Assembly: GCA_965227835.1 (NCBI GenBank)
Contig: OZ245768.1
Coordinates: forward strand, 360,001-392,000
Direction: 5' to 3'
Origin: Candidatus Saccharimonadota bacterium
GTDB taxonomy: Bacteria; Patescibacteriota; Gracilibacteria; BD1-5; UBA6164
Length of the DNA: 32,000 nucleotides
Shown: piece by piece, positions 6,800 through 27,633 of the stretch
Numbering within the stretch: position 1 is the first letter of the stretch
Layout of the letters: each line of letters begins with the position of its first letter
Notes under the pieces: model-generated
The model's database searches: none
What the model was told of the DNA's origin: nothing
The model's input: the letters and a program-made list of their open reading frames with translations, nothing else
Translations under genes and position numbers: made by a program

Positions 6800-7372
6800 A
6801 TGTCCATGGAGTCATTTTTAAAAGAAGTTGTAAAATGAGATAAATTTGAACTTTTAATTGATACTAAAATTTTTAGTAAAGATGTTGTTTTGAAATCAGC
6901 TTATGTTTTTTTGGATAAGGGTTATTTTTTCTTTAAGACTGATTGAGAAAATATTTTACTTCAATTCACTTCTAGGGATAAATCATCTGATAAACCAGAA
7001 GATGTAATAGCTGATTTTTCTGATTGTTTGCTTGAAACTGTTTTGAGAGATAAACTTGAAAAAGATAACAAAACTATAAGGGAAACAATAGTTGAAAAAG
7101 CCATAAATTGACCTCTTGATGCTAGTAATTTTGTGAGTTTGGATACTGACAATATTGCTAATAATAGTGAACAGAATCAAGTTGATTTTGATAAGGATAT
7201 AGATGAAATTTTAAAAGAGATAGAAAATGATCCAGATTTGAAAATAGATGAGGAAGAGATAGAAAAGATATTGAAAGAAATAGAAGAAGAAACAGAAAGT
7301 GAAGTTCAAAAACCGAAACTTACTTTGGATCCTGATGCTATCAAGAAAGCTAAAAAAGATTTTAAGAAATAA
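6800..7372 (+). CDS. hxsD: HxsD-like protein with long acidic C-terminal extension
   Basis: 190 aa. The N-terminal ~110 aa contain ...DFSDCLLETVLRDKLEKDNKTIRETIVEKA, resembling the LLNDYxLRE signature I recall for TIGR03976 (HxsD). The C-terminal half is D/E/K-rich with a duplicated I-x-x-ILKEIE motif. Confidence 0.5.
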
Positions 7373-7394: not shown

Positions 7395-7589
7395 ATGGAG
7401 AAAAGTTTTGAAATAGATTCAAATATTTATAGTTCAAGTTCTATAAAGCAAGCCATATCTGATTTTGAAGATATTGCTCTTTTATCTTTTAAATGATGAA
7501 AACTGTCTATTTCTTGAGAAGATGATTCTTCCGTGCAGGAAGTATTTAATGAGTTTATGAATTATGTTATTTGATTGAGTGTTGAGTAA
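7395..7589 (+). CDS. Small HxsD-like protein (second copy)
   Basis: 64 aa: MEKSFEIDSNIYSSSSIKQAISDFEDIALLSFKGGKLSISGEDDSSVQEVFNEFMNYVIGLSVE. Same N-terminal pattern as the upstream gene and an F-N-E-F-x-N-Y tail. Lies directly before the hxsB region. Confidence 0.4.
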
Positions 7590-7592
7590 ACT

Positions 7593-7859
7593 ATGAATCC
7601 AAGAATAAGTGATTTTTTTTGAATAAAAATAAATATGTATTATGGTGATCATAATCCACCTCATTTCCATGTTAAATATAATGAATATTCTGCTTTTATT
7701 TCTATAGAAAATCCTAAAATACTTGAATGAAACTTACCTATTAAAATTGAAAATCTTGTTATATCTTGGGCTGAACTTTATGAAAAAGAATTATTTGAAA
7801 ATTGGGAACTCGCTTTAAATAAAAAACCTTTGAAGCCTATATTACCATTTATAAAATAA
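7593..7859 (+). CDS. DUF4160 family protein
   Basis: 88 aa. The GIKINMYYGDHNPPHFHVKYNEY motif is the DUF4160 hallmark. Confidence 0.75.
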
Positions 7860-7860
7860 T

Positions 7861-8106
7861 ATGATACATACTGTTAAAAGTGCTATTAGAATAAAATGAA
7901 CTTATAAACTTAGCCTGGAGTTTGAAAATGGGGAAGAAAGAATTTTTGACTTCAAGCAATATGTTTGAGGTAATAATTTTATTTTTTGACCCTTAAAAGA
8001 TTCAGATACTTTTGATCTATTTAAGGTTGAGAATTGAACTGTCGTTTGGGAAACTTGAGCAGACTTCAATCCTAATTTATTGTATAAAAATTCACTAAGC
8101 AAATAA
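7861..8106 (+). CDS. DUF2442 family protein
   Basis: 81 aa. ...YKLSLEFENGEERIFDFKQY...VENGTVVWETGADFNPNLLY is typical of DUF2442, the usual partner of DUF4160. Confidence 0.7.
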
Positions 8107-8108
8107 TT

Positions 8109-9575
8109 ATGTTAAACTTAGAAAAAATTAAAAAAGCTGACACTAGTCAAATTTGATTTTTTAGATTTAAGAAATTTGATTCTGAAAGATACTTAATTAC
8201 AAATGATGCCTGAAAATTTCATTTCTTAAATTTAGAGGATTTTGATACTTTTGTGAGTTGAAAAAATTTAGATAGTTTATCTTGTTATGATGACCTATCT
8301 AAAAAATGATTTATCAAAACAGAAGACTATGAAGCTAAAATGACTGGTAGTGTAGCACTTAAAAATCATTTTGTGTGAGTTTGACCTACCTTGCATATGA
8401 TAGTTACAACTCTTAGATGTAATCACAAATGTAAATATTGTCATGCCGCTGTAGCTCCTATGTCTGCTAAAGAGTTTGATATGAGTCAGGAAACTGCAAA
8501 AAAAGTGGTTGATACTATTTTTTATACTAATTCTCCTAGTTTGACTATTGAATTTCAATGATGAGAATCTTTGGTAAACTATGATGTGGTAAAATTTATA
8601 GTTGAATATTCCAAACAAAGAGCTTTTCATTTAAAGAAAGATTTATCTTTGGTTATGGTTTCAAATCTTACCTTGATGACAGAAGAAAAACTTAAATGGC
8701 TTTTAGATGAAGGTGTAGATATATGTACTAGTCTTGATTGAGATGAAATAACACACAATAATAATAGAACTTGATTTGAATGAAATAGTTTTGAAAAAGT
8801 TACTTATTGGATGAAGAGACTTGGTGAAGAAAAAGAAAAGAGATGAATGTGAAATGTATGAGCACTTCTTACAGTTACAAGAGAAACAATGCCTAGATAT
8901 AAAGAAATTATTGATGCTTATGTTTCTATAGGTTTAGATTGAATATTTTTAAGATGGCTTAACCCTTATGGTTTTGCAGCAGCTCAGACTAAAGAGCTTT
9001 CCTACGAAGATCATGAATGGATAGAATTTTATAAAAAGTCCCTTGATTACATAATGGAGTTGAATAAAAAATGAACATTTTTCTCTGAAAGTATTACAAG
9101 AATTTATTTAGCAAAGATTTTTAATTCTAGAGATCCTGCATTTATGGATATTAGATCACCAAGTTGAATAGGTATAGGTTGAGTAGCCTACAATTATGAT
9201 GGAAAAATTTATGCTTCAGATGAATCTAGGATGCTTGGTAGGATGTGAGATGATGCCTTTTTGATGAGTGAATGATTATGAACCCCTGAAGAAAATTATA
9301 GAGAAATGATAAATAGTGATACTTGTAAAGCTTCTATACAATCATCTACACTAGATTGATTACCTGGTTATAATGAACATGTTTATAAACCTTATATTGG
9401 TGTTGATATAATACATAATTATAAAACCACAGGAAGTTTGTTTTATCCTATTATGAAAGATGAAAAAATAAAATTCCAAACAGAGATTCTTGATTATATA
9501 TTTAAAAAATTAGAAGACCCACAAGAAGAAAAAATACTTATGAGTTGGCTTGTTTGAAAGGAAGAAGTGATTTAG
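8109..9575 (+). CDS. hxsB: His-Xaa-Ser system radical SAM maturase HxsB-like
   Basis: 488 aa. ~100-aa N-terminal domain, then CNHKCKYC (codons at 8418-8441), FQGGESL (GG = TGA TGA), and a long C-terminal domain. Size and architecture fit HxsB (TIGR03978), with HxsD-like and HxsA-like genes in the same locus. Confidence 0.7.
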
Positions 9576-9641
9576 AATGATATAATGTAATAGATTAAAA
9601 TCTATTTCTACTTTGCTGTTAAATATAAAAACTGAAATTTT

Positions 9642-10085
9642 ATGATAATAAAAGAAGAATTTGAAATTAAAATTAATAATTTAAGTAAAGCTCTAGATTC
9701 ATTGAAAGAGTCAATTATTTTAGAGAAGAAGAATACTGAAAAAAATATTTTTTCTATATTTAGGGATTCGGCAATTCAAAGATTTGAATATACTTATGAA
9801 TTATCTTGGAAATTTATGAAATATATATTAGAAAAATATGATAAAGAAATAGAAACTAGAAGTCCCAGACAAACCCTTAAAACAGCATTTAGAGTAGGTT
9901 ATATTGATAATTTAAATCTTTGGTTTAACATTTCTGAATATAGGAATAAAACAAGTCATGAATATGAACAAGATATTGCAGATGAATTATTTGATAATAT
10001 ACCAGAATTTCTTGAAGAGATACAAAAATTTTATGAGTCTATAAAAATTAAGTATGATGGATGATATTTTGAGACAAATAAATAA
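9642..10085 (+). CDS. HI0074-type nucleotidyltransferase substrate-binding (HEPN-like) protein
   Basis: The track ORF (140 aa) extends 7 codons through TGA to TAA at 10083. RDSAIQRFEYTYELSWKFMK...RNKTSHEY matches the HI0074/TIGR01987 pattern. Confidence 0.75.
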
Positions 10086-10341
10086 AGTTTTAAGTAAACA
10101 TTTAGATAAGAATAAATATAAATTCTTTCTATATGGCTCTAGAGCTAAATGAAATTTCTTCTTTAGATCTGATTATGATATTTGAGTATTAGGTGACTCT
10201 AAAATAGATTTGAAAATAAAGTATAAAATAGAAGATGATTTTGAGAATATACCAGCTTTAATAGATTTTACAGATTTTGCCAGTGTTTCTGATGATTTTA
10301 AGAGATTAGCAATGAAGGATGTTTTGCGGTTGAATAAATAA
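10054..10341 (+). CDS. Minimal nucleotidyltransferase (MNT) partner
   Basis: 95 aa. FLYGSRAKGNFFFRSDYDIGV is the GS-x(n)-D-x-D nucleotidyltransferase motif. Overlaps the upstream HEPN-like gene. Confidence 0.75.
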
Positions 10342-10359
10342 ATTTTTAAATGATTTATT

Positions 10360-10653
10360 ATGTCTAATAAAAAAACTTTATATTTTCCTATTACCATAAA
10401 TGAAGAAGATGGTATTTATTGGTGAGAAGCTAAATTTTTTGATGGTTGTTTTTCTCAATGAAATAGTTTGGATGATTACTGAAACAATATGACCCAAGCA
10501 ATATCTTCCTATAGTGAATCTATAAAAGATTGAAGTTTTGATATGCCTAATACTGGAATTTTATGAATTAATCTTGATGATTATGGGAAAATTAAAGATA
10601 GTGTCTTGAAAAGAATTGATAAAAATTCTTACAAAGCATTGAGCTCTGGTTAA
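10360..10653 (+). CDS. hicB: HicB-like antitoxin (UPF0150 fold)
   Basis: 97 aa. ...YFPITINEEDGIYWGEAKFFDGCFSQGNSLDD... matches the HicB N-terminal domain pattern. Confidence 0.6.
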
Positions 10654-10807
10654 AAAATGAAAATGAAATCACTTTAAAGTTAGATTTAACAATAAAAATT
10701 CCATTATACCTGTACATGGAGGTAGAAATTTACCTATTTGACTTTTAAAAGCTATTTTTAACCAACTAGATATTGATAAAGATTTGGATATATTTAAGGA
10801 TTTTTAA
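10622..10807 (+). pseudogene. hicA: HicA-like toxin lacking an ATG start (truncated or non-canonical start)
   Basis: The frame reads KILTKHGALVKKGKGNHFKVRFNNKNSIIPVHGGRNLPIGLLKAIFNQLDI..., a HicA pattern (G-x-H ... IP-x-H ... L-x-x-G-x-L). The frame opens just after a TAA at 10619 and has no ATG. It overlaps the hicB 3' end. Confidence 0.5.
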
Positions 10808-10817
10808 ATGATTTATT

Positions 10818-11069
10818 ATGCTTGATAGAAAGAATTTAATATATAGGAACAAAGAGCTTTTTTGGGATATATCTGATTTTAATAAACTTGGAGATGAAGC
10901 TTTAGAAGAAAGATTTTTAATGTATTGAGATTGGAAAAATATTTTAGATTTAATAGATATTTTTGGATATGAAAAATTTAGAAATATTTATTTAAAATTA
11001 AAAAATAAATCTAGGTGTAGTTTAAATAAAAAGACTATTAATTTTTTTAATCTTTACTTGAATGTATAG
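10818..11069 (+). CDS. Small protein, putative cognate antitoxin of the downstream AbiEii-like gene
   Basis: 83 aa. ...KELFWDISDFNKLGDEALEERFLMYGDWKNILDLIDIFGYEKF... Its stop overlaps the next gene's start. Confidence 0.4.
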
Positions 11070-11675
11070 GGATCTTTTATATGATAATCAGTTTGAAGTA
11101 ATTTTAATTTTGAGCTTATTTTCTAGAGATTTTTATTTAGCTTGATGAACTGCTATAGCTTTGCAATTATGACATAGGAAGAGTTTAGATTTTGATTTGT
11201 TTTCATATAAAAAAATAGATAATAATTCTATCGTTAATAAAATAAAAAATGGTTGATATGAAATTGAGAGAATTTTAATTGATAATAAAAGGAAGAGCTT
11301 ACAGTGATTATTAAATGAGTTAAAATTACCTTCTTATATTATCCTTTTAAAATAAATCTTGAAAATAAATTTGAACAGATTAGTATTCCAAATATAATGA
11401 CTCTATGAACGATGAAATTTTATACACTTTGAAGAAGATGAAAATGGAAAAATTATGTTGATTTGTATTTTATACTAAATAGTTGATATAAATTTTGAGA
11501 TATATCTAGTTTAGCACAAGATATATTTGCTTGAGGCTATAATGAAAAACTTTTAAGAGAGCAACTTTGCTATTTTGAAGATATTGATTATAATGAAGAA
11601 GTTGAATTTATTGAAGAAAGAGTAGATAATAAAGATATAGAGAAGTATTTGATTTCTGTTTCTTGTAGTTCTTAA
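11062..11675 (+). pseudogene. AbiEii/DUF1814-type nucleotidyltransferase toxin, frameshifted
   Basis: Frame A (11062-11355): ...FYLAGGTAIALQLGHRKSLDFDLFS..., the AbiEii N-terminal motif. The family-typical continuation GVKITFLYYPF...MTLGTMKFYTLGRRGKWKNYVDLYFIL...LCYFEDIDYNEE is in another frame that opens at 11289 and ends at TAA 11673-11675. A 1-nt indel lies near the A-run at ~11287. Confidence 0.6.
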
Positions 11676-11695
11676 GAATTTATTTGAGATTTGAT

Positions 11696-11989
11696 ATGAG
11701 ATTATATAAATGACAATATAATTTACTTCAATCTTTAGCAAAAACTATTAACTGAGATTTGTATTTGTTTTGAAGTAGGGTTTATGACAATAAAAAAGGC
11801 TGAGATATAGATATTTTGATTATAAATAAATCTGATAAAGATAATTTAAAATTATCTCTTGAGGTTGAAAGAGAATTTTTTAAATGTTACGAGCAAAAAA
11901 TTGATGTTGTTGTTTTTAATGAAAATATGACGAGAGAGCAAAGACTATTTTTTGATAGTATTAAGAAGCAAAAAATATGACAGATTTAG
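11696..11989 (+). CDS. Minimal nucleotidyltransferase (MNT), second pair
   Basis: 97 aa. LYLFGSRVYDNKKGGDIDILI motif. Overlaps the downstream HEPN gene. Confidence 0.7.
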
Positions 11990-12402
11990 AAAGAGTTTAT
12001 TATGAACAAGTTTTGAAAGCTTATACTCTATATAATGCTAGTTTAAAACACTTGTCTTCTCTTGAAATAGAAAAATTGGAAACACCGGAAGATTTAGAAG
12101 TTCTTGATGCATTTTTTTCTAGATTTGAAAGGCTTATAGAGTTGATTTTAAGTAAATTTTCTAAAACAGTTGAGATAAAAGAATTTTGAATTAGTGAATG
12201 AACTCTTAGGGATAGATTATCTTTGATGGAAAAGAAATGATACATTAGAGATTTAGATTTATGGTTTGATATGAGATGAGTAAGAAATAAAATAGCTCAT
12301 GAATATGTGAATAATTGACTCAAAGATATGTATATTTTCATAATTAATAATTATGATGAAGAGATTAAATTTTTTGTATCTAAAATAAAAAATATTTTTT
12401 AA
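11977..12402 (+). CDS. HEPN/DUF86-like protein, second pair
   Basis: 141 aa with TGA=Gly. ...WFDMRGVRNKIAHEY... carries the R-x(4)-H HEPN motif. Confidence 0.65.
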
Positions 12403-12418
12403 ATTTTAATATTATTTC

Positions 12419-12859
12419 ATGTCTGATAAAAAAAAGAAAATTTTTCCAAAATTAAAGAAAAAGTTAAAATGATTTCTTACTGATGAGAGTGGTAAGATTA
12501 GTAAAAAAGATGCTCTTGGTTTAGCTGCTGGTGCTGCTTTGCTGGGTAGTGTTGGTGAGGTTGCCGCTCATAGTAGTTGACATGGTAGTTGACATGCAAA
12601 TTGAAAAAATCGTCGTGACAGTAGCCAAGATCATCACTGAAGTGCAGTTTGACATGGTAATGCTTCCTGTTCTGTAAATCATGCAAGTTGAATAGTAAAT
12701 TGACATTATAGTTGAACTCCGAATGCCACTGTTGTGTGAGACTCTTGACATTGAAGTGCTTCAGGATCAAATGCAAATGGTCATGGAAGTCATGGAAGTC
12801 ATGGAAGTCATGGAAGTCATGGAAGTCATGGAAGTCATGGAAGTCATGGACAGTGGTAA
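12419..12859 (+). CDS. hxsA: His-Xaa-Ser repeat precursor protein HxsA-like
   Basis: 146 aa: MSDKKKKIFPKLKKKLKGFLTDESGKISKKDALGLAAGAALLGSVGEVAA-HSSGHGSGHANGKNRRDSSQDHHGSAVGHGNASCSVNHASGIVNGHYSGTPNATVVGDSGHGSASGSNANG-(HGS)x7-HGQW. Basic leader, hydrophobic segment, then degenerate and finally perfect H-x-S repeats. 11 in-frame TGA codons. Confidence 0.75.
12782..12850 (+). repeat. Perfect 9-bp tandem repeat catggaagt x7 (plus partial copy) encoding (His-Gly-Ser)n
   Basis: Direct reading. Units start at 12782, 12791, 12800, 12809, 12818, 12827 and 12836, with partial catgga at 12845-12850. Confidence 0.95.
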
Positions 12860-13670: not shown

Positions 13671-15009
13671 ATGAATTATACCTTGTCAGATAGAAATTTT
13701 TTGTCTAGTACATTTAATAATTTTAGATTTATTAGATTGTTGAGAATTGAAACTAAAGACTTTGAATTAGTTGACAGTGATAGAATAATAAGTGGATACA
13801 AGGATTGTATTGAAAATAATAATAGAATTGATTTATATATTCATATTCCATTATTGTTATAAAGAATGTTCTTTTTGTTATCATAGAATGGATCAATATA
13901 GAGGTAAGGAATTAATGGATTCTTATATAGACTTGTTAGAACAACAAATGAAAAACTTGTTCATCTTTTATTGAAAGATATATATAACTTCTTTATGGTT
14001 ATGATGATGAACTCCAACAGTAATGACAGAACAACAAACAATCCGACTATTTAATATTATTGATAAATACTTTATTAGAAATCCAAAATACATCTCAACC
14101 ATAGAATGACATCCTAATTCCCTTTCAAAGTCTAAAATAGATATATTAAGTCAATTTTGAATATCTATGATATCTATTCCCTTACAAACACTTAATGAAA
14201 ATTCATTAAAAATGAACAATAGATACTCCTCCTCTTATATTTATCAAGCTCAGGAAATGATAAACTACTCCATTAGAAAAAAATTTACAGAAGTATCTTC
14301 AGATATGATTGTTTGATTGGAATGAACTAATTTAAAATATGATATAAAAACATTCAATTTTTTAATGAATCTATGAGTGGATTGTATAGTAATCTTTCCA
14401 TATCAATTGAGTACAAAAAATCATAGATTTAGTAATACCGAATTTATAAAATTTAATAAAAATATAGAAGAAAGAATTAATTCATTGTTATTATACATAA
14501 GAAGATATACTGTATACAATATATTCAATCATGCAAAATATTGTAATGCTATATATGTGACTAAAAATTTATATTTAGGTGATAAAAAGTATCATACATT
14601 TTATTATAGATCCAAAAAAAGTCTAATATGATTAGGAGCATATGCTTTATGACATACATATAAAAAAAATTATTATAATTGTGATCTTGAAGATTATGTT
14701 AATAATAAAGGCAAATACAAATTATATAAACTATCTGATAATGAAGATATTTTATATTATATTTTAATGAATTTTGATAACTACTGATTTATAAACACTA
14801 AAGTATGTAATGAAATATTTTCTGTTGATATATTTAAAGCATTCAAAACACTCTCTTATCTTTTATCAAAGGAAGTAATTTACTTGAAGTGAAATTATAT
14901 ATATTTAAATGATTCTATGAGTAGAGACAAGATATTTCTTTATTTCTTAAAAATGATAAAGATAGAATTTCCTAATTTATATTGTCAATATGGTATCAAC
15001 AACATTTAA
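13671..15009 (+). CDS. HemN-like radical SAM protein, apparent +1 frameshift at ~13851 (intact from ATG 13792 in the downstream frame)
   Basis: Frame 1 (13671-13862) ends ...NRIDLYIHIPLLL*. The next frame reads ...YCYKECSFCYH...LWLGGGTPTV...IEGHPNS...ISIPLQTL...VGLEGTN..., ending at TAA 15007-15009. Skipping one base gives LYIHIP-YCYKECSFCYH, the canonical HemN-family motif. Confidence 0.7.
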
Positions 15010-17414: not shown

Positions 17415-18344
17415 ATGAAACATATAGAATTAAATATATGACTTGCTTGTAACCATAAATGCATCTTTTGTATGTCGGGTATTGCAAGATGAAAAATTTT
17501 GTGATTTGAAAATGTATCTAATTTAAAACATGAAATAGATACATTATCTTCTAAATGATATGATTCTATATGATTTTTATGATGAGAACCTACTATACAC
17601 CCAGGTTTTTTGGAATTAGTATCCTATGCTAAACAAAAGGGCTTTATTAATATTGAAGTTATAACAAATTGATCAAAATTTCATAATAAGAAAATCTTGT
17701 TAGAATGTGTTAAGTCAGGATTAACAAGAATATCTTTATCAATTCATTCTCTTGATTATAAGAAAGAATCTATTTTATTATGAGGTATAGATAATGCTTT
17801 AGATCAAAAAATAGAGTCAGTAAAGAATATAGTTTATATATATAATAAATGATTATTAAAAAAAGAGCTATCTATAAATATTGTTGTAACTAAAAAAAAC
17901 TATAAAGATATCTATAAATTAATATTATATCTTTATAAGTTTTGAGTTAATTCTTTTAGGCTTAATTTTGTTCAACTTGAATGATATTCAACACAAAACT
18001 ATAATTTAATAGCAATAAAATATGAGAATTTTAAGAAATATCTATTAGATATAATATCACTAAGTAAAAAATATTTAGATTTAAGAGTAAATTTTGAAGC
18101 TATACCTTGGTGTTTTAGTTGATTGAATTATAAAGATTATTTAATATATTCAGAACAATCTATCGATAGGGAAAAAGATAAAATATCTAGAGACGATATA
18201 GATTTTAAATCTAGAAATATTATAAATCAACTTGATAGAAGAAAAGAATTGAAGTGATATATAAAAAAATGTAATATGTGTTTTTTGAAATCAAATTGTG
18301 AAGGAATTTGGAAAAGATATTTAGAATATTTTAATATTAACTAA
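17415..18344 (+). CDS. Radical SAM protein with C-terminal Cys-rich (SPASM/twitch-like) tail
   Basis: 309 aa. NIGLACNHKCIFC, GFLGGEPTIHP (17571-17591, three Gly by TGA), and C-terminal KKCNMCFLKSNCEGIW. Confidence 0.75.
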
Positions 18345-18350
18345 ATTATT

Positions 18351-19274
18351 ATGAATATTTCATGCGCATCAAATTTAGACGATGTATTTATAAAAAAAAT
18401 ATCTGATAATATAAATGAAAAAAAATTAGAATTCTTCTTATCTTTTCCTAGTGATAAATTCTCATTGAATAGACATTTTATTCCCAATATAAATTATGTT
18501 GACTTTAAGAAACATATACATTTAATAATATCCAGTTGATATAAAGTAAATTATTTACTAAACTCTTTACTTATAAATGATTATGATTTATTGATAAAAA
18601 AAATCTCAGATTTAACAAATATCTGAATAGATACCTTTACGGTTTCAGATTTAAAGGTTATTGAATTTTTAAATAAAAAATTTCCCCAAATTAATATTGT
18701 ATTATCTATTATTTATTGACTAAAATATACAGAAGATATTTATAAACTTTTAAAAAAATATAGTATTTCTAGATTTATTTTTGATCAATCTTTAAATCAT
18801 AATTTCAGGGGTTTAATAAATTTGACAAAAGAATGTAAAAAAAATTGAATAGAAACAGAAATTTTAGTTAATGAATTATGTTTTACTGATTGTAAATATA
18901 GAAAACAACATTATAATTTAGATTCTAAATATAGCAAAATTGATTTTAATTTAAAATCTAAACTATGAGATTATTGTAATGATGAAAGAAAATCAAATAA
19001 CATAATTTTAGACTCTCCTTGGATTAGACCTGAAGATATTGAAATATATGAAAAAATATGAATTGACTATATAAAAATATCGTGAAGAAACTCGTGAACA
19101 GATGTCTTATTTAATTGCTTGGATTCTTATATAAATAAAAATTATATTTGAAATTTTTTTGATTTAATGGATTTAGATTGAAAAAGAGATGATAAAACTT
19201 GAAGATCAGAAACAAGGTATTATGATAATAAAAGATTAAACTCAGTTTTATTATCTAAAATTAAAAAATTATAA
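18351..19274 (+). CDS. Peptidase U32 family-like protein
   Basis: 307 aa. ...SPWIRPEDIEIYEKIGIDYIKISGRNSG... resembles the U32 (PrtC/YhbU-type) core motif ending in K-I-x-G-R. Has Cys pairs (LCFTDC, DYC). No CxxxCxxC. Confidence 0.45.
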
Positions 19275-19278
19275 ATAA

Positions 19279-20187
19279 ATGAATAATATACGTTCGCATT
19301 TAATACGTGTAAATATGATTTGCAATGAAACATGTTCTTTTTGTAATGTAACAAGCCAAACTGAACCAAATTATAAAGATAAAACTATTTTTGAAATTCT
19401 AATAGAAGTTCAAAAAATTATTAAAAAAAATAATGGTCCTGAACTTGTAAAAATTACTTTATCATGATGAGAGCCCACCATTAGAAAAGATATTTGTAAA
19501 ATAGTTCTTTGAATTAAAAAACTATGAATTAAATATATTGAAGTCCAAACAAATGCAACATTATTAAAACCTAAATTAGCTTGAGATCTGATACTATCTT
19601 GAGTTAATAAATTTTTTATTTCTTTTCATAGCAACAATAAAGCTATATTTGAAGAGTATGTTTGACTTAAAAAAATATTTAAAATAGTTGTAAATAACAT
19701 AAAAAATTTATGAAAATATAATGATATTGAGGTCATATTGAATCCAGTGATAAGTAGGAAGAATTATCAAAACTTAAAATCATATTTTGATTTTGTTAAA
19801 AAGGAATTTATTTTTGTAAAGTATATATCTTTATCTTTTATTCAGCCACACTGAGAGGCTGAAAAAAATATAGACTTAATGCTAGATTATGATTTTGTTA
19901 GTAAAAATTTAGCTTGAATATTAGATTATGCTTATAATTTGTGATTTATTTTGAATAACCCCTATTGTTGATTGCCAATTTGCGTTTTATGATGGGATAA
20001 ATATAGTAAAAATTGTATAGAAGTTATTGAAGGTAAGGAAATTATTGACAATAATAAATTAAGGTTTGATAACAATAAAATATACTTGGAAGAATGTCAA
20101 AGCTGTATTTATAAATGATTATGTGGTTGAGTTTGGAAAAAATATGTAGATTTATATTGAAATAAATGAATTAATACCATAAAATAA
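19279..20187 (+). CDS. Radical SAM protein with C-terminal Cys-rich tail
   Basis: 302 aa. VNMICNETCSFC, ITLSGGEPTI, and C-terminal ECQSCIYKGLCGGVW. Confidence 0.75.
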
Positions 20188-20197
20188 ATTAAAACCA

Positions 20198-21112
20198 ATG
20201 AAAAGATTAGAGTTTCACATTTCATATATTTGTAATCATGACTGTATTTTTTGTAGTGAATATGATAGATTAGTTACATATAAAAAAAATCCTTTAACTA
20301 TTCTTCAAATAAAAACTATATTGCTTGATAGAAGAAAGAAATGATTTAATCATATTAATTTTACTTGATGAGAACCAACAATCATACCTTGATTTATAAA
20401 TGTTTTGAAATTTGCAAAAAAGCTTTGATATAAAATTTATGTTTGAACTAATGGAACCATGTTTTCTTCTAATGATTTTGCAAAGCAAGCACTAGAATTT
20501 ATAGATGAATTATCTTTATCTATTCATTGGTATGATAAGGAAACTTGTGAAAAACAAGTCTGAGTACCCAATCATTTTAATATTTATAAAAATTACATAT
20601 CAAAAAATATATGAAAATATAAAAACGATAAAACATTTTTATTTTCTAACGTTGTTTTAAATAAATACAATTATAAAAATACTTTAGATATAGTTAAATT
20701 TATAAAATCTACATATCCTTGAATTAAGCAAATACTAATATCAAACATAGCTCCTGAATGATTAGCAGATAATGATTTTTCTAGTTTAGTTTTTGATTTA
20801 CTTAATTTTAAAAATTATATTCCTGGCATTGTAAATTATTGTAATGATAATGATTTAATATTAAGGTTTTTTTGAATACCGATGTGTATAATAACAGAAA
20901 AATATCAGGATTATTCTAATGATAAACATTGGGAAGAAAGGCATACAATAGAAAGATTTACTAATGAGAATTGAAATATTGTATTGAAAGATATTTATAG
21001 TCCGGATAATTCTAGAAAAAGATCTTTTGTTTCCAAATGTGAAACTTGTAAGTGGAAAATAAATCCTTGTACAGGAGTTTTTAAAAAGTATTTAGATTAT
21101 TATAATATATAA
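20198..21112 (+). CDS. Radical SAM protein
   Basis: 304 aa. HISYICNHDCIFC, NFTGGEPTI, and C-terminal KCETCKWKINPCTG. Confidence 0.75.
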
Positions 21113-22065
21113 TGGAACTTATATATATACTTACATATGATTGTAATTTTAGGTGCAAATACTGTGATATAAATAAGAGAAATGAAAATATATCTGATAA
21201 TATAATAAAAAAAAGTATTACCTATTTAAGAAACAATAACTTTGATATAGATAAAGTTAAGTTTTTTTGATGAGAGCCATTACTAAAGAAACAAGAGATA
21301 GAATTTATTGTAAGCAATTTTCCAAAAAAATATAATCCTAATTTTTATATTACATCAAATTCAACATTAATTAACGATGATTTTATTAATTTTGTTAAGG
21401 ATAATAATATTAAGCTAACCTTTAGTATTGATTGAAGTAACAAAACAACTAGTGAAAATAGAATTTTAGAAAATTGATTAAATCTATCTAATAGTATAAT
21501 AGAAAATACTAAAAAATATAAGGATAATATAAGAATTAATCAGGTTATAACCTCAAAAAATTCAAAAGATTTCTTTAAAAATTTTAAATTTATATATGAT
21601 TTATGAGTTAGGAATTTTAATTTCTTACCTGAATATTATAAAAGATGGAGTAAGTCATGACTATCAAATTTGAAAAAATGATTTGATGAAATATATGAAT
21701 TTTACAAATCTTGAAACTATTTTGGCTTAGTTAATTTAGATAATTATAGTGATACTTCCTTCTTTAATCTCTGAATTGTTATTGATACAGATTGAAATTT
21801 GTATTTAACTAATTTAATACTTTCATGAATATTTGAAAAATATAAAAAAAATTTAACTGTATGAAATGTATATGATTGTAATATACAAGTTAACTTTTCA
21901 AACGTAAATTTTAGTAAAAAATATTTAAAAAGAATTAAAGAAATTATAAAAAAGGAGTATAGTGAAGAAGTTTTAAAATCTGTTAAATATGTCGACTTAA
22001 TATTAAATAATTTTTGTAATAACTTTAGTTTATGTCAACAACAAAATTTATCTATAACCAAATAA
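21112..22065 (+). CDS. Radical SAM protein
   Basis: 317 aa. ILTYDCNFRCKYC, KFFGGEPLL. Its start overlaps the upstream stop (TAATG at 21110-21114). Confidence 0.7.
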
Positions 22066-22088
22066 AAGAAAAATATATTAGTATAAAA

Positions 22089-23018
22089 ATGTTTAATCAT
22101 AAATTTCCTAATTTAATTGATAATATTTTTATTGAATACTGAATAAAAATATCTGTAGTAAAGAAGTTTAGGTTTCATGCTTGTAACACCGTTTTGCTTA
22201 TGGAATCAAATCGAGGCCATTTATATATTTTAAAGATTTTTAATAAGATTCAAAGATATGGACAATTTGAAATTGAATATAAAATTTCTAATATTTTAAG
22301 TAAAAATTGAATAATAATACCTAAAATAATTAAGAATTTATCAAATGATTTTAATAGCTTTTATGATACGAAAAAAATTGTTTTATATGATTTTATAGTT
22401 GCTAGAGATTTATCATGAAGTATTGATGATATAGATTTAGTTATTAGAAAATTTGCTAATTTTCATATTACTCTTAATTCTAATATTTATATTACAAATC
22501 TATTTTATCAGAAGAAATTATTTAACAAAGAGCTTAGTAAAACAAAGAACAGTATTTTTTATGATATATTTTGCTTTTTTAAAAATACAAAATATAGTAT
22601 ACTTACTAATATTTTAAAAAATTGTTTAAATTTTAACTTGTATTGTGATATTGAAAATATTATTTATTGATGATTGAGCAAAGATCATATAGCTATAAAA
22701 AATCATAATTTAATCTTGTATGATATGGAGTCTATATGACTTTGAGACTTATACTTAGATGTTATGTATGTAATATATTATTTATGATATAGAAATAACG
22801 ATGAAAATTTGGAAATTTATAAAATGATTCATATGTTAAATGTATATAATAAATTTAATAAATTGTATATAACTAAAAAAAACTTTAATCTATATGTTCT
22901 TTATTTTTTATTTTTAGATTTTAAAGTTATGTTAAAACAAAAAAATGAATTTACAGATTTTCATTTAAATAGACATTATTATAATATTTTAAATTTTTAT
23001 AAATTATATTTTTGATAA
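22089..23018 (+). CDS. Kinase-fold (APH/CotS-like phosphotransferase) protein, divergent catalytic loop
   Basis: 309 aa. ...IIYGGLSKDHIAIKNHNLILYDMESIGLGDLYLDVMYV... has the Brenner-like region and the D-x-E...D-L pattern of APH-type kinases, but lacks a clean H-G-D-x(4)-N. Confidence 0.45.
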
Positions 23019-23719
23019 ATAACGAAAAAATAAAGATAGTTTTTGATAAGCTTTTAAATAAATGAAGCTATAAAATTTATAATTCAAATGTTGGCTTCAT
23101 TGTAGTTCCTTATAAATCAAAATTTGTATATAAGATATTTTTTAATCAGAAATTATTTTTTAGAGAACTAAATATTTATAACCTACTAAGAGAAAATTCG
23201 AATATTCTCATACCAAAATTTAAGAACGATTTTTCATTAAAAAATTTTTTCGTACTCAAACTAGAAAATGTTAGAACACAATATGAAAGAAAAAATAATA
23301 TATTAGACTTAGATTTAAAACAGATTGCTGATATATTATATACTATTCATAGTTTTTCGTATAATTCAAGAAACCTAATTTTATGAGATATACATTCATC
23401 TAATTTTTACGAAATAAAATATGATCAAGAATTAAAATTATGAATATTTGACTTTTCATCCTCAAAATACTGAGATATAGAAGAAGATATAGCTAATCTT
23501 TATATAGAAATATGAATAAATGATTCAATTTTGAAAAATTTTCTAAAGTATTATTGAAATAATAATATTAATTATTTAAAAATTTATTATTATTCTATAA
23601 GTGAATTATACGAAAGAATTAAAAATGGTATGAATTTATCAAATGAAAAAATAAATATATATAATAAAATGTTATTGTCTCTAAGGTATAAATTATGAAA
23701 ATTAAGCATTTTAAAATAA
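23012..23719 (+). CDS. Kinase-fold (APH-like phosphotransferase) protein
   Basis: 235 aa from a TTG start, since no in-frame ATG is available after the TAA at 23000. LILGDIHSSNFY...LKLGIFDFSSSKYGDIEEDIANLY matches the H/L-G-D-x-H-x-x-N and D-F motifs. Confidence 0.5.
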
Positions 23720-24450
23720 TTTGATATTGTAATATATTTGAACAAGTTATAATTTGATGAAGCAAATTAAAAATAGATGTACTGATTGATGATTATGATT
23801 GAACTGAATTAGTTTTAGATATTTCGAATTATTCACACAAGAAATTTATCAGTTTTTTTTGTAATAATTTTTCTAAAATTATAGAAGTTAATTTTCTTTG
23901 ATATAAGGGATTAAGTTGTGGTAAAAAATCTTTAGATTCTAGGATTAAACTGAAAAACAAATGAAATATTTATTACTCAAATACAATATGAAATTATATT
24001 TTTAATGAAGATTTTGTATGTATTAACAATTATAACTTTAAAAATCTTGATCATCATTTATGAGTATATAATAAATATGAAAATTCGTTATATGAACAGG
24101 TAAGGGGAATAAATAAGATAAAATTATATCCGAATGACATTATTTTTTTTGACAGAAATAAATGAAATTTGAATAATTTTATAAATTTATGACTTAATTT
24201 TAATTATATAATTAAGAGTTATATAATTAATTTAAAGAGATGAAAAAAAAGTATTTTTTATAGAAATATTTTTTGAAAAGATTCTAGTGATATAGTATAT
24301 GAAAATATAAATAGAATATTAAAAAGTTTCAAATATGGTACATATTTTATCTACAATGTTGATTTAGAATATTTAGATAATTATGTATTTGATGAAAAAT
24401 ATTATTTATATGACTATCATTTTAAACCAGTTTTTAGTAATTTTATTTAA
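23695..24450 (+). CDS. Hypothetical protein
   Basis: 251-aa open frame with TGA=Gly, overlapping both neighbours. No family recognised. Confidence 0.45.
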
Positions 24451-25409
24451 TGAAAAAATTGAAACACATAGAAATAAATATTTGAAAAGCTTGTAACAAT
24501 AAATGTAAATTTTGCATGAGTTCGAAACCTTCTTTATGGGATATAAAATTCTCAAAATTTGATATCATAAGGAAAAGTCTAAATGAATATTATAATAATT
24601 GATATAGATCTGTTTGATTTTTATGATGAGATATATCAATACATCCGAATGTATTAGAAATTATTAAATGTTGTAGAGAAATATGATATCAGAGTATTAA
24701 CATTATTAGTAATTCTATGAGGTTTAGTGATTTCTCTTTTGCATATAATATAGTAAAAAAATGACTAACTAGAATTAATATATCAATACACTCTCATATT
24801 AGCTATATTGAAGATGATTTAACTCAAGTAAAATGATGATTACAAAAAAAACTAAGAGCAATAGATAATTTTTCTTTTTTATATAAAAAATGAATTTTAC
24901 AGAGTCCAATTAGTATTAATATTGTTGTAAATAAAAAAAATTATTTATATATTGTTGAAACCGTTCTATACTTTTTTAAGGAAAAAAATATAAAAGATAT
25001 AAGAATAAACTTTATTCGGCTCAGTGATGATGTGAAAGAAAATTGGGATTTGCTTAAAATATCATATAGTGAGTTCTTGCCATATTTAAAAAAGCTTATA
25101 TATCTGTCTCTAAAATATAATATAAGAATTACTTTTGATACCTTTCCTCCATGTATATTTTATTTAGTAAGTTTTAAAAATTATAAATATATCATTAATA
25201 AGTTTTTATGAGAAAAGTTTGATCATATAAACGAAATACTATGGTTGAATAAAGAAACAAGTTTTAATTGGAAAGATAGGAAAGCTAATGAATTGAAGGC
25301 AAAATTTAAACAATGTAGTAACTGTTTTTATGAAAATGTTTGCGAATGAGTATGGAAAGAATATGATGAAATTTATTGAAATAAAGAATTTATTCCCATA
25401 AAATTGTAA
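24450..25409 (+). CDS. Radical SAM protein (paralog of the 17415 gene)
   Basis: 319 aa. NIGKACNNKCKFC, GFLGGDISIHP, GLTRINISIHS, and C-terminal KQCSNCFYENVCEGVW. Collinear with the 17415 protein. Start overlaps the upstream stop (TAATG). Confidence 0.75.
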
Positions 25410-25413
25410 TAAA

Positions 25414-26601
25414 ATGTGATATGTGAAGATATGTTTAGATGACGATATTAATACAATTATTTATAATACTTACTACCATGTAAAACATTGAATAAATAAT
25501 GTATTATTTTATAATAGTTTAAATGGAAAAACTTTAAATAAAAATAAGGTACTAAAAGTTGTATCATACATGATAAATAAGCATAATTCTGTAAAATATT
25601 TGTTTTATAATGTACCATTTTGTATTTTTGATAAATTGTGAAAGAAATTTATAGATAAATATTGTGTATTTAACAGATTATGTAATTATTATATTTGATA
25701 TAATAGCTATGGCAAATGTAATTTGTGCGATTTTGGTTTATTTTGTAATAATTTTAATTCTCTAATTAATAATAGTGAAATAAAGGAATTAAACGGTTTT
25801 TACTGAGAAAAAATTAATAAATATACTTTTTTGATAAAGTTTATAAAAATATATAATTTTTTCATAATGCTATGATATTCTGATAATGAAATAATCTTGA
25901 GTTCAAGGCAGAAATATTTTATGCAATTTTTGAGGGGTGCTAAAATTAATAAAAATTTCTTATCATATTTAACTTTGACTATTAAATTATCTAATCGATA
26001 CATAAATTATAATGTCTTTAAAAATAAAAATAAAATTGCTATTTTTAAAAATAAATGTTTAAATGATATATTTTTTTATTTACAAAGAAAGTGCTGAATA
26101 AATATTTTGTTGGAATGTGATAACTCTACAATTGATTTATTTGAAAGTAATAAATTTGTAGTAAACTTTCTTGGTAAAAACCTAATTTTTTTAAATACTT
26201 GATTTTATAATATAGATCCCCCCTTTTTTGATTTTGATTATAATAATTTATTTTTAGATAAAAATGCTACTGTATTTAAGTGAGTATCTTTAAATAAAAA
26301 TTTAGGTATATTTTATGGGAATGCTAGAATTGTAAAAAACTCAAAAGATTTTTTGTACAATAGAATTTGAGATGTTTATGTTTGAAAAGATATTTTTTCT
26401 TGAGTAAATATTGAAAGTTTTAAGGCTATACTTATTACAAGTGATTGATCATCAGAACATGTTAGACTCTACGAAATAATAAACTCTATAAAAGTTCCAA
26501 TTATTGAAAGGATAAAACCAAATATAGTAGAAATTATAAAAAATGGAAGTAAATTAAAGATTGATTTTAGTACTTGAACTATCAATTTAATTAAAACATA
26601 A
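25414..26601 (+). CDS. Cys-rich protein resembling a stand-alone auxiliary-cluster (SPASM-like) domain plus unknown C-terminal domain
   Basis: 395 aa. The N-terminal third carries PFCIFDK...YCVFNRLCNYYIGYNSYGKCNLCDFGLFC. No CxxxCxxC/GGEP core. The frame agrees with track ORF 25897-26097 read through TGA. Confidence 0.45.
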
Positions 26602-27633
26602 ATTTTTAAAAATTAATTGTATTTAATTTTATTATTTCCATTTTTGAGATCCCCCCTTTATTTATACAGAAGTAGTAAAATATAATAGAGATTTAAAGTT
26701 GAAAGATTTATCTTTAGTTATAAAACCTCGTTGACTCTTGAATTGATTTTAATTATACCATTAATTGTATATATGTTAGACATATTTATATATTTAAAAT
26801 GAGGCATAATAGTAAAAAATGTGTGGCTAAAAGAGATATTATTTGGTAATATAAAAGCAAATACTCTCTAACTTTTATCTATGGGAAATAAAACCTACAC
26901 GAAAAATTGTAATAAATGCTGATCAAATGAAATAAAAAAAGATTGATTTAAGAGATGAAAATAAAGATATAAATGTAAAAAATGTTGATATGTCTTTCAG
27001 AATAGTAGTAGAAAACAAAAGGTAAATATAAACAAACTATATCATGACTATTGTTTTTGAAAACAAACATATGAACAACTATCAAATACATACTGAATAT
27101 CAATTAAAACAGTTCAGAAAAATTTAGATGAATATAAACTACAAGTACCACAAATAAAAGCTAAAGAAGTAGTACTGCTAATAGATACAACATACTTCTG
27201 AAACCTCTGAGTAATGGTCTTCAAAGATGCTTATAGAAACAAAGTGCTTCATATCAAGATAGTAGATAATGAGAATAATGAAGACTACAAAAACTGAGTA
27301 AAAGAACTAGAAAAAGCTTGATTTATAATAAAAGCTATAGTTTGTGATTGAAGAAAATGATTATTGAATTGATTTTCAAATATTCCTACTCAGATGTGTA
27401 ATTTTCATCAGGTAGCTATAGTGAGAAGGTATATAACTAAAAAGCCTGTTTTAGAAGAAAATAAAGCGTTAAAATGGATTACAGATTTACTTACAAAAAC
27501 AGACAAAGAAACTTTTAGCTATTATCTTGATTTGTATTGAGAAAAGTATAAAGATTTTTTAAATGAAAAATCTTTATGAAGAGATTGAAAGTTACATTAT
27601 ATACATAGAAGAACTAGGAGTGCATATTTTTCT

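What the first reader, a model, noticed from the sequence alone, without database searches (positions are those of the whole stretch)
9642..12402. Four tandem TA modules packed back-to-back inside the operon, two with decayed toxins
The modules are, in order: HEPN-like/MNT (9642-10341, overlapping genes); HicB/HicA (10360-10807); a small protein with an AbiEii-like nucleotidyltransferase (10818-11675); and MNT/HEPN (11696-12402, in the opposite gene order to the first pair). Gaps between modules are only ~10-20 nt. HicA has no ATG and AbiEii is frameshifted, whereas the putative antitoxins look intact. A TA 'cassette rack' between a maturase and its precursor is unusual. It could stabilise the locus, or it could mark a recombination hotspot that accumulates cassettes.
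Basis: partly seen in the sequence, partly recalled or inferred. Interest (0 to 1): 0.6.

Follow-up and report, generated by a model that had tools for sequence, protein, structure and literature searches.

The report
Toxin-antitoxin stack inside an antiphage operon
A small bacterium that reads the stop codon TGA as glycine has five small toxin-antitoxin gene pairs packed into the gene junctions of one phage-defence operon; this is a tidy but ordinary example of defence genes clustering, and all but one of the genes are intact rather than decayed.

Summary
The genome uses table 25 (TGA = Gly). Under that code, 9642-12402 holds four complete two-gene TA-type modules: HEPN/MNT, HicB/HicA, an 83-aa partner plus an AbiEii-like nucleotidyltransferase, and MNT/HEPN. 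They lie between hxsB and hxsA, 10-20 nt apart. A fifth pair, DhiT(DUF4160)/DUF2442 at 7593-8106, lies between hxsD-like and hxsB.

HicA is intact and has in-frame ATGs at 10577 and 10583. Only AbiEii is broken, by a 1-nt deletion at about 11291. I could not check this against reads.

In the other hxsB loci surveyed, none has a TA gene there. In 17-18 of them, including the same-genus genome, hxsA follows hxsB directly. So the rack is a lineage-specific insertion.

An independent metagenome contig carries the same rack at 96% nucleotide identity, with low dN/dS (0.04-0.33) and different flanks. A 21-nt repeat found nowhere else in the genome brackets hicBA.

HXS is a published antiphage system, and TA clustering in defence islands is already known. 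I therefore read this as a nested mini defence island: a new member of a known kind, of moderate interest.

The parts
6800..7372 (+). hxsD (His-Xaa-Ser system protein)
   Evidence: TIGR03976 58.5 bits, cut-off 50; orthologues at 44-69% identity in relatives
7395..7589 (+). hxsD-like small gene
   Evidence: NF038315 41.2 bits, cut-off 41; directly abuts hxsB in relatives
7593..7859 (+). DhiT-type toxin (DUF4160), first gene of a fifth TA pair lying outside the finding's coordinates
   Evidence: PF13711 72.5 bits; NF048015 81 bits, below the 100-bit equivalog cut-off; only copy in the genome; absent from this junction in relatives
7861..8106 (+). DUF2442 partner (DhiA-type antitoxin)
   Evidence: PF10387 40.4 bits; same toxin-then-antitoxin order as the validated dhiTA pair
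8109..9575 (+). hxsB radical-SAM maturase
   Evidence: TIGR03978 486 bits, cut-off 370; 23 in-frame TGA at Gly columns
9576..9641 (.). 66-nt spacer, the only long gap in the block and the least conserved stretch against L051
   Evidence: 31 of 66 positions identical plus an 8-nt indel, whereas the other four spacers are 100% identical
9642..10085 (+). HEPN1, HI0074-type HEPN (putative RNase toxin) with R-x4-H (RNKTSH)
   Evidence: PF08780 111 bits, TIGR01987 95 bits; dN/dS 0.10 against L051
10054..10341 (+). MNT1, minimal nucleotidyltransferase (putative antitoxin) with GS...DYD; overlaps HEPN1 by 32 nt
   Evidence: PF18765 40.6 bits, PF01909 29 bits; homologues at 68-72% identity paired with HEPN elsewhere
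10342..10362 (+). 21-nt direct repeat, copy 1 (ATTTTTAAATGATTTATTATG), ending in the hicB ATG
   Evidence: Exact repeat, unique in the 1.49 Mb genome at up to 2 mismatches
10360..10653 (+). hicB-like antitoxin, short UPF0150 type with no DNA-binding domain; its tail after TGA codon 69 overlaps hicA
   Evidence: PF15919 19.4 bits and PF21748 16.8 bits, both below cut-off; conserved sqG motif encoded by TGA; 25% identity over 95 aa to L079 HicB, which also overlaps its hicA
10577..10807 (+). hicA toxin, intact; alternative ATG at 10583
   Evidence: PF07927 46.5 bits, cut-off 27; only copy in the genome; dN/dS about 0.3
10800..10820 (+). 21-nt direct repeat, copy 2, containing the hicA stop and the ATG of the next gene
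   Evidence: both copies also present in L051
10818..11069 (+). 83-aa conserved partner of the AbiEii-like gene (putative antitoxin, weak DUF6922 match)
   Evidence: PF21956 18.7 bits, below cut-off; 56% identical ORF with the same overlap upstream of AbiEii in L052-L054
11062..11355 (+). AbiEii-like nucleotidyltransferase, N-terminal fragment carrying the GGTA...DFD motif; the frame ends at 11355
   Evidence: PF08843 26.2 bits; aligns to residues 1-76 of intact 203-205-aa homologues
11287..11291 (+). Frameshift site: the window reads AAAAG.GAAGAG where L051 reads AAAAATGAAGAG
   Evidence: The only coding indel in the 4.4 kb aligned with L051
11289..11675 (+). AbiEii-like C-terminal part, in the -1 frame
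   Evidence: aligns to residues 77-204 of intact homologues; dN/dS 0.10
11696..11989 (+). MNT2 (GS...DID)
   Evidence: PF18765 30 bits, PF01909 25.7 bits
11977..12402 (+). HEPN2 with R-x4-H (RNKIAH); overlaps MNT2 by 13 nt
   Evidence: PF08780 33.7 bits, cut-off 31.8; HepT NF047751 24.6 bits
12419..12859 (+). hxsA-like His-Gly-Ser repeat precursor
   Evidence: 13 H-x-S motifs; NF038313 and NF038309 matches below cut-off; follows hxsB directly in relatives

Best explanation
Five independent, self-contained TA-type modules have been inserted, all in the operon's orientation, into two gene junctions of an HXS-related radical-SAM antiphage operon. The host is a code-25 (TGA = Gly) Gracilibacteria-type bacterium. 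The modules are DhiT/DUF2442, HEPN/MNT, HicBA, small-ORF/AbiEii-like and MNT/HEPN. The result is a nested mini defence island.

Shown: the insertion, the family assignments, purifying selection, and the presence of the same rack in a second strain.

Inferred: with gaps of 2-20 nt and no terminator-like sites, the modules are read through from the hxs promoter as well as from any promoters of their own. Each pair works in the way known for its family. The HEPN RNase is held in check by its MNT. The HicA RNase is held in check by HicB. The AbiEii-like nucleotidyltransferase is held in check by its 83-aa partner. Each then acts as a second-line abortive-infection or growth-arrest device behind the HXS entry barrier.

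The AbiEii-like toxin is currently split by a 1-nt deletion, which is either a recent inactivation or an assembly error. hicBA looks like the latest arrival, because it is bracketed by an exact 21-nt duplication of the stop-spacer-start junction.
For: Genetic code: TGA aligns with conserved Gly. Families.

Catalytic motifs can be read directly from the translations: RNKTSH and RNKIAH in the HEPNs, GS..DxD in both MNTs, GNH in HicA, and GGTA..DFD in AbiEii.

Insertion: in 17-18 of the other hxsB loci an HxS-rich ORF starts within about 75 nt of hxsB, and none has a TA gene there. The same-genus genome has hxsD-like/hxsB 2 nt apart and hxsB/hxsA 18 nt apart.

Independent assembly: L051 carries the same rack at 96.05% nucleotide identity over window 8107-12563, so this is not a misassembly.

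Selection: dN/dS is 0.04-0.33 for every gene. TGA-for-Gly usage is 68% in the rack against 73% in neighbouring genes, so the modules have long been resident in code-25 lineages.

Modularity: each module occurs on its own elsewhere. Small-ORF+AbiEii is seen in L052-L054. HEPN-MNT lies between tgt and murG in one genome and inside the atp operon in another.

Stacking recurs in G035 and in L079-81.

The 21-nt repeat is unique in the genome.

Literature: HXS is an experimentally shown antiphage system. TA loci cluster in defence islands. dhiTA is a validated TA pair. AbiE has been reported in code-25 CPR bacteria.
Against: There are no expression or phenotype data. The promoter scan is uninformative (57 sites found, 56.6 expected), so co-transcription is inferred only from spacing.

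Several family matches are weak. HicB and the small ORF fall below Pfam cut-offs. The HepT, MntA and DhiT equivalog cut-offs are not met. PADLOC gives only weak AbiEii and PDC-S09 hits.

The cluster is not a canonical HXS system: there is no HxsC above cut-off and its precursor is divergent. Its own antiphage role is therefore extrapolated.

The same HEPN-MNT type also sits in a housekeeping operon, so lying next to a defence system may be coincidence.
Confidence: 0.6

Rival explanations
1. The modules are selfish hitch-hikers or addiction modules with no defence role. In a gene-dense 1.49 Mb genome the junctions of a dispensable, strain-variable operon are among the few sites where an insertion is harmless. 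Once inserted, the modules resist loss and incidentally stabilise the hxs block.
For: The same HEPN-MNT subfamily is found at unrelated junctions, including inside the ATP-synthase operon. The hxsB + rack + hxsA-leader block is conserved at 96% while both flanks differ between strains, as expected if the block resists deletion. One toxin carries a lesion in each strain: a frameshift in the window and GAA->TAA in L051. About 88% of the genome lies in ORFs of 80 codons or more.
Against: Low dN/dS on toxins and antitoxins alike fits either view. Five of at least seven detected TA modules concentrated in a single defence-related locus is more than a 'safe harbour' alone predicts. The literature increasingly assigns these families to phage defence.
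Confidence: 0.25
2. The TA rack acts as a functionally integrated guard. It is embedded in the hxs transcript so that phage-induced shut-off or degradation of that transcript depletes the labile antitoxins and triggers abortive infection. This would couple second-line defence to failure of the first line.
For: All five modules are co-oriented and spaced 2-20 nt apart, with no terminator-like site inside 9576-12418. The rack travels with hxsB and the hxsA leader as one 96%-identical block between strains.
Against: No other hxs locus surveyed has such modules, so HXS-type clusters do not need them. The modules also occur alone elsewhere. There are no expression data.
Confidence: 0.1
3. The feature is an artefact: spurious ORFs in AT-rich DNA, or a chimeric assembly that joins unrelated TA genes to the hxs operon.
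For: GC content is 22-25%. Some HMM matches are weak. Two frameshifts lie within 3 kb of each other in this assembly.
Against: An independent metagenome assembly has the same order and junctions. Pfam and NCBIfam hits are strong for HEPN1, HicA, DUF4160 and the MNTs. There are hundreds of full-length AbiEii homologues. Purifying selection is evident.
Confidence: 0.02

Closest known systems
Defence islands with clustered TA loci (Makarova et al. 2011/2013; Gerdes 2024, PMC10865869: e.g. eight TA loci in 7 kb of a Thermodesulfobacterium genome)
   Same: Several unrelated TA modules are packed together next to another phage-defence system. HicA-type modules lie near radical-SAM defence genes.
   Different: Here the modules lie inside the operon, between the maturase gene and its substrate gene. 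They are all co-oriented, with gaps of 2-20 nt and no transposase, integrase or IS nearby. The host is a 1.49 Mb code-25 genome that otherwise carries very few TA loci.
HEPN/MNT type VII TA (HepT/MntA), and specifically the HI0073/HI0074 pair family (PF01909/PF18765 + PF08780)
   Same: Two-gene overlapping modules. The HEPN carries R-x4-H and the MNT carries GS...DxD. Both gene orders occur.
   Different: The HepT and MntA equivalog cut-offs are not met (24.6 and 28.8 bits against 60). HEPN1 belongs to the HI0074 subfamily. AMPylation and RNase activity are untested.
HicAB type II TA
   Same: A HicA domain above cut-off with the conserved His, preceded by a short HicB/UPF0150-like gene.
   Different: HicB lacks a DNA-binding domain and falls below the Pfam cut-off. 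A 71-77-nt hicB/hicA overlap is created by reading TGA codon 69 as Gly. This layout is also seen in another recoded lineage, L079.
AbiE (AbiEi/AbiEii) type IV TA / abortive infection system (Dy et al. 2014; reported in Vampirococcus, PMC8080830)
   Same: An AbiEii-family nucleotidyltransferase with the N-terminal GGTA...DxD motif, preceded by an overlapping partner gene.
   Different: The partner is an 83-aa DUF6922-like protein, not a COG5340 wHTH AbiEi. The toxin is a short form of 204 aa. It is frameshifted in this assembly.
dhiTA (DUF4160/DUF2442) of Dickeya dadantii (PMC8198452)
   Same: The same domain pair in the same toxin-first order, with adjacent genes.
   Different: The DhiT equivalog score is 81 bits, below the 100-bit cut-off. 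It comes from a distant phylum and is untested.
Canonical HXS antiphage system hxsD-hxsB-hxsC-hxsA (Li et al. 2026, PMC13128918)
   Same: HxsD and HxsB score above their NCBIfam cut-offs, and there is a His-Xaa-Ser repeat precursor.
   Different: No HxsC scores above cut-off (best 75 bits against 267.9). The order D-B-C-A is not kept. The precursor is divergent, and many extra radical-SAM genes lie downstream. The paper reports 99.7% of systems in Pseudomonadota.
Chromosomal integron cassette arrays rich in TA cassettes
   Same: A co-oriented array of small promoter-less modules, some of them TA, with repeated junction sequence.
   Different: There are no attC-like imperfect inverted repeats of 60-140 nt (the gaps are 10-20 nt), and I saw no integrase in the ORFs read. 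The 21-mer is not a shared site in public metagenomes.

Membership tests
HEPN/MNT (HI0074/HI0073-type; type VII TA) | HEPN domain match above the family cut-off | tested here: met
   HEPN1: PF08780 111 bits (cut-off 31.8) and TIGR01987 95 bits (cut-off 55.8). HEPN2: PF08780 33.7 bits, but TIGR01987 only 31.7 bits, below cut-off.
HEPN/MNT (HI0074/HI0073-type; type VII TA) | R-x4-6-H catalytic motif in the HEPN; GS...DxD in the MNT | tested here: met
   RNKTSH (HEPN1), RNKIAH (HEPN2), YGSR..DYD (MNT1) and FGSR..DID (MNT2), all read from the translations.
HEPN/MNT (HI0074/HI0073-type; type VII TA) | HepT / MntA equivalog score (NF047751 / NF047752, 60 bits) | tested here: not met
   24.6, 28.8 and 21.6 bits. 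The pairs are related but not equivalogs of the characterised HepT/MntA.
HEPN/MNT (HI0074/HI0073-type; type VII TA) | Toxicity of the HEPN and its neutralisation (AMPylation) by the MNT | not testable with these tools
   Needs expression assays.
HicAB | HicA domain above cut-off with the conserved His | tested here: met
   PF07927 46.5 bits (cut-off 27). KGKGNHF in the window and GSH in L051.
HicAB | Adjacent HicB antitoxin | tested here: inconclusive
   PF15919 19.4 bits and PF21748 16.8 bits, both below cut-off. The position, size and lpGc.sqG-like motif fit.
AbiE (AbiEi/AbiEii) | AbiEii nucleotidyltransferase domain | tested here: met
   PF08843 26.2 bits for the fragment and 34.1 bits for the read-through (cut-off 22.5). 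More than 590 homologues, many annotated AbiEii/AbiGii.
AbiE (AbiEi/AbiEii) | Intact toxin reading frame | tested here: not met
   1-nt deletion at about 11291 relative to L051 and to 203-205-aa homologues.
AbiE (AbiEi/AbiEii) | AbiEi-type wHTH antitoxin partner | tested here: not met
   The partner is an 83-aa protein with only a weak DUF6922 match, although it is a conserved partner.
DhiTA | DUF4160 toxin followed by DUF2442 antitoxin | tested here: met
   PF13711 72.5 bits and PF10387 40.4 bits, in toxin-first order. The NF048015 equivalog score is 81 bits, below 100.
Canonical HXS system | HxsB and HxsD above cut-off | tested here: met
   TIGR03978 486 bits (cut-off 370) and TIGR03976 58.5 bits (cut-off 50).
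Canonical HXS system | HxsC partner radical-SAM enzyme and D-B-C-A gene order | tested here: not met
   The best TIGR03977 score in the genome is 75 bits against 267.9. hxsB is followed by the rack and then hxsA.
Integron cassette array | attC recombination sites between cassettes, and an IntI integrase | tested here: not met
   Gaps are 10-20 nt with no attC-sized inverted repeats. The 21-mer is not a shared site elsewhere. I did not search specifically for an integrase.

The most novel reading that the evidence does not exclude
The rack is a transcription-coupled guard. Because the antitoxins are made only as part of the hxs operon transcript, a phage that silences or degrades that transcript to escape the HXS-type barrier automatically releases up to five different toxins. 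In addition, the hxsB + rack + hxsA-leader block moves between strains as one recombining unit, with new modules captured by duplicating the stop-spacer-start junction (the 21-nt repeat).
Probability: 0.1. Interest if true: 0.7.

Novelty: new member of a known kind. Interest (0 to 1): 0.35.

Why it matters
First, this is a practical warning. In code-25 bacteria, reading in the standard code turns intact TA genes into apparent pseudogenes. The 'decayed toxin' reading of HicA came from exactly that.

Second, it shows that even very small, gene-dense CPR-type genomes build defence islands. They do so by slipping complete TA modules into operon junctions: here into an HXS-related operon, and elsewhere into the ATP-synthase operon. 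The tight spacing is kept, and no recombinase is evident in the ORFs I read.

Third, the pair of near-identical strains with different flanks, patchy divergence and an exact junction duplication gives a concrete system for studying how such modules are gained and exchanged.

It does not reveal a new kind of system.

Tried and rejected
1. Table 11 and table 4 readings. Rejected: TGA sits at conserved Gly columns, not Trp.

2. The 21-mer as a general recombination or att site. Rejected: the 14 public metagenome hits are single chance matches in unrelated contexts with no TA homologues.

3. Similarity between the hicB and hxsA 5' ends (44 nt, 70%). Judged no better than the many other ~70% AT-rich matches in the same list.

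4. Programmed -1 frameshifting for AbiEii. Rejected: there is no slippery heptamer (AAU AAA AGG), and all homologues, including L051, are single ORFs.

5. TA insertions in other hxs clusters (L029, L039, L033, L035). The small ORFs there look spurious. In G010, hxsB is followed by ATP-synthase genes.

6. Small genes between atpG and atpD in relatives as TA pairs. Rejected: they are a conserved membrane protein and an RNase H.

7. Promoter and terminator scan. Uninformative in this AT-rich DNA.

9. PADLOC. Only weak AbiEii and PDC-S09 hits.

10. Protein 2 was a sequence I mistyped. That row is disregarded. Protein 4 of the same call is the true L048 ORF.

11. Paralogues of the rack genes elsewhere in the genome. 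None found.
Full report
GENETIC CODE. Read by table 11, the region is a litter of short ORFs. With TGA as a sense codon the whole window resolves into long, tightly packed, mostly co-oriented genes. I aligned HxsB from the window with 20 orthologues from related genomes. Of 290 TGA occurrences, 213 fall in columns whose majority residue is Gly, and none fall in a Trp-majority column. The genome therefore uses table 25 (Gracilibacteria/Absconditabacteria type). It is a single 1.49 Mb contig at 25.5% GC. Everything below uses table 25.

WHAT IS IN THE FINDING'S COORDINATES. The four modules are real.
- Module 1: HEPN1 at 9642-10085 (PF08780 111 bits, TIGR01987 95 bits, RNKTSH motif), overlapping MNT1 at 10054-10341 (PF18765 40.6 bits, GS..DYD) by 32 nt.
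- Module 2: HicB-like at 10360-10653 (weak: PF15919 19.4 bits) and HicA at 10577-10807 (PF07927 46.5 bits).
- Module 3: an 83-aa ORF at 10818-11069 (weak DUF6922 match), overlapping by 8 nt an AbiEii-like gene that is split into 11062-11355 and 11289-11675.
- Module 4: MNT2 at 11696-11989 and HEPN2 at 11977-12402 (PF08780 33.7 bits, RNKIAH).
Gaps between modules are 18, 10, 20 and 16 nt. The only longer gap is the 66 nt between hxsB and HEPN1.

The flanks are HxsB (TIGR03978, 486 bits) and an HxsA-like His-Gly-Ser repeat protein. Upstream lie HxsD and an HxsD-like gene. It has the same toxin-first order as the experimentally validated dhiTA pair of Dickeya.

ARE THE TOXINS DECAYED? HicA is not. 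In-frame ATGs lie at 10577 and 10583. The Pfam match covers the whole domain, and the conserved His is present. The same long hicB/hicA overlap is seen in another recoded lineage (L079), so it looks like a normal feature of this subfamily.

AbiEii is broken in this assembly. A read-through of the two frames gives a 204-aa protein with more than 590 homologues, nearly all 203-205 aa and intact. The best named ones come from Candidatus Gracilibacteria at 66% identity. Against the near-identical contig L051, the only coding indel in 4.4 kb is here: the window has AAAAG.GAAGAG where L051 has AAAAATGAAGAG. It follows an A4 run, so an A5-to-A4 undercall is possible.

L051's own copy has a GAA->TAA nonsense codon that removes the last 19 or so residues. 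Both halves of the window gene show dN/dS of about 0.10, so any inactivation is recent. I saw no slippery site for programmed frameshifting.

IS THE POSITION UNUSUAL? Yes. HxsB scores above cut-off in 29 of 61 related genomes. I pulled 28 further hxsB loci and called genes in table 25. In 17-18 of them an HxS-rich ORF starts within about 75 nt of the hxsB stop. Where I measured the gap, it was 9-73 nt. In most of them hxsD, hxsD-like and hxsB are contiguous, 2-3 nt apart. None has a homologue of any rack gene in between. The same-genus genome (L032) has hxsD-like/hxsB 2 nt apart and hxsB/hxsA 18 nt apart. HI0074-type HEPN genes occur in only 5 of 61 relatives and never near hxsB. The rack and the DhiT pair are therefore lineage-specific insertions into two junctions of the operon.

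A SECOND STRAIN. The closest AbiEii homologue (86%) led to an 8.7 kb ENA metagenome contig, L051. It carries hxsB, all four modules and hxsA in the same order. Nucleotide identity is 96.05% over window 8107-12563. Homology starts 2 nt before the hxsB ATG and ends inside hxsA, after the leader. Both flanks differ. Upstream, L051 has a 23S-rRNA-IVS four-helix-bundle gene (PF05635, 102.8 bits) where the window has DhiT/DUF2442. Downstream it has different radical-SAM genes. This rules out misassembly. It also shows that the junction upstream of hxsB has taken different inserts in different strains.

Nei-Gojobori estimates under table 25 give dN/dS of 0.04 for hxsB and 0.10-0.33 for all rack genes that have substitutions. 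That indicates purifying selection on toxins and partners alike. Divergence is strongly patchy (chi-square p about 5e-7). HicB, most of HEPN1 and HEPN2, and the hxsA leader are nearly identical. The hxsB 3' end, the 66-nt spacer and AbiEii reach about 10% divergence. The pattern looks like a recombination mosaic.

ORIGIN AND MODE OF INSERTION. The rack genes use TGA for 68% of Gly codons, against 73% in neighbouring genes (p = 0.5). They have therefore long lived in code-25 hosts.

Each module is a self-contained unit found alone elsewhere. The small-ORF + AbiEii pair, with a 56% identical partner and the same overlap, sits between housekeeping genes in three other contigs. HEPN-MNT of the same subfamily (58-72% identity) sits between tgt and murG in one genome. 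In another (L082) it sits inside the ATP-synthase operon, between a conserved membrane-protein gene and atpD.

Stacking also recurs. G035 has HEPN-MNT-HicB-HicA back to back. L079-81 have HEPN-MNT followed by another small pair that looks RelE-like by eye (not HMM-tested), and then HicBA nearby.

An exact 21-nt repeat, ATTTTTAAATGATTTATTATG, ends in the hicB ATG at 10342-10362. It recurs at 10800-10820, where it contains the hicA stop and the next gene's ATG. It occurs nowhere else in the genome at up to 2 mismatches, and both copies are present in L051. Its 14 exact hits in public metagenomes are unrelated chance matches. The simplest reading is that hicBA (437 nt plus one repeat) entered a pre-existing MNT1/small-ORF junction with duplication of that junction, and that recombination between the repeats could excise it precisely. 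I saw no integrase, transposase or attC-like structure.

CONCENTRATION. Within this genome, HicA, DUF4160 and HI0074-HEPN occur only here. AbiEii, PIN, ParE/RelE and HepT searches found nothing elsewhere. Two MazF genes lie far away. These whole-genome searches lose sensitivity at TGA codons: the AbiEii search missed even the copy in the window. 'Nothing else' therefore means nothing detected. Even so, five of at least seven TA modules sit in 4.8 kb.

INTERPRETATION. The canonical four-gene HXS system has been shown to block phage DNA entry (Li et al. 2026). The cluster here is related but not canonical: it has no HxsC above cut-off, a divergent precursor and many extra radical-SAM genes. TA loci are known to cluster in defence islands, and HicA modules are known to sit next to radical-SAM defence genes (Gerdes 2024). 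AbiE has been noted in a code-25 CPR bacterium.

The best reading is therefore a nested mini defence island. Five independent TA or abortive-infection modules have been inserted into junctions of an HXS-related operon. They are probably read through with it and are kept functional by selection. The exception is one recent, or artefactual, lesion in AbiEii.

A purely selfish or addictive role cannot be excluded, and the atp-operon example supports it. A functionally coupled 'guard' role is possible but has no direct support.

NOVELTY. The families, their pairing and their tendency to cluster are all known. The new points are the exact setting and the natural two-strain comparison. The setting is inside the operon, between maturase and substrate genes, in a recoded ultra-small genome, with tight spacing kept and a junction duplication. 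I rate it a new member of a known kind, of moderate interest.

Noticed in passing
window 7593-8106: A fifth TA-type pair, DhiT/DUF4160 + DUF2442, is inserted in the 2-3-nt spacer between hxsD-like and hxsB. It is absent from that junction in all relatives. In strain L051 the gene at that junction is a 23S-rRNA-IVS four-helix-bundle gene instead.
   Followed up: yes
window 10566-10653: hicB runs through an in-frame TGA (codon 69) for 28 more codons and overlaps hicA by 71-77 nt. A standard-code hicB would stop there, 8-14 nt before the hicA ATG. The extended layout is shared by a HicBA pair in another recoded lineage (L079, 59-nt overlap). It may be a footprint of the stop-to-Gly reassignment that has since become fixed.
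   Followed up: partly
window 10062-10085: The only TGA in HEPN1 is codon 141, at the point where a standard-code gene would end in an ATGA-type overlap with MNT1. The resulting ...DGGYF tail is conserved in the L079 homologue.
   Followed up: partly
L051:1-8727 vs window 8107-12563: The block hxsB + rack + hxsA leader is 96% identical between two strains whose flanks are unrelated, and divergence inside the block is patchy (0 to about 11% per 150 nt). This suggests recombination at the scale of single modules.
   Followed up: partly
window 9576-9641: The 66-nt hxsB/HEPN1 spacer is the least conserved stretch against L051 (31 of 66 positions identical plus an 8-nt indel). The four other inter-module spacers are 100% identical. 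It could be a recombination breakpoint or a fast-evolving regulatory region.
   Followed up: no
L082:251-2767: In another TGA-recoded bacterium, a HEPN-MNT pair of the same subfamily is inserted inside the ATP-synthase operon, between a conserved two-TM membrane-protein gene and atpD.
   Followed up: partly
L048:1053-2208 (G035): A relative in the same family carries HEPN-MNT-HicB-HicA back to back with overlapping genes. The sequences are only distantly related to the window's, so this is an independent assembly of the same combination.
   Followed up: partly
window 13840-13870: A second frameshift lies just before the Cys box of the first HemN-like radical-SAM gene (...HIPLLL* against the +1 frame FHYCYKECSFCYH). 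It is not in a long homopolymer. Two frameshifts within 3 kb raise the question of assembly indel errors.
   Followed up: partly
L025, L026, L027, L038, L040 (upstream of hxsD): In several relatives the hxs operon appears to lie directly downstream of the ATP-synthase operon. This is judged from gene sizes and from a conserved membrane-protein/RNase H pair, and was not HMM-tested. The window has different genes upstream.
   Followed up: no
window 17421-31111: Seven radical-SAM paralogues downstream match the HxsC model weakly (17.6-75 bits against a 267.9-bit cut-off). No canonical HxsC is present.
   Followed up: partly
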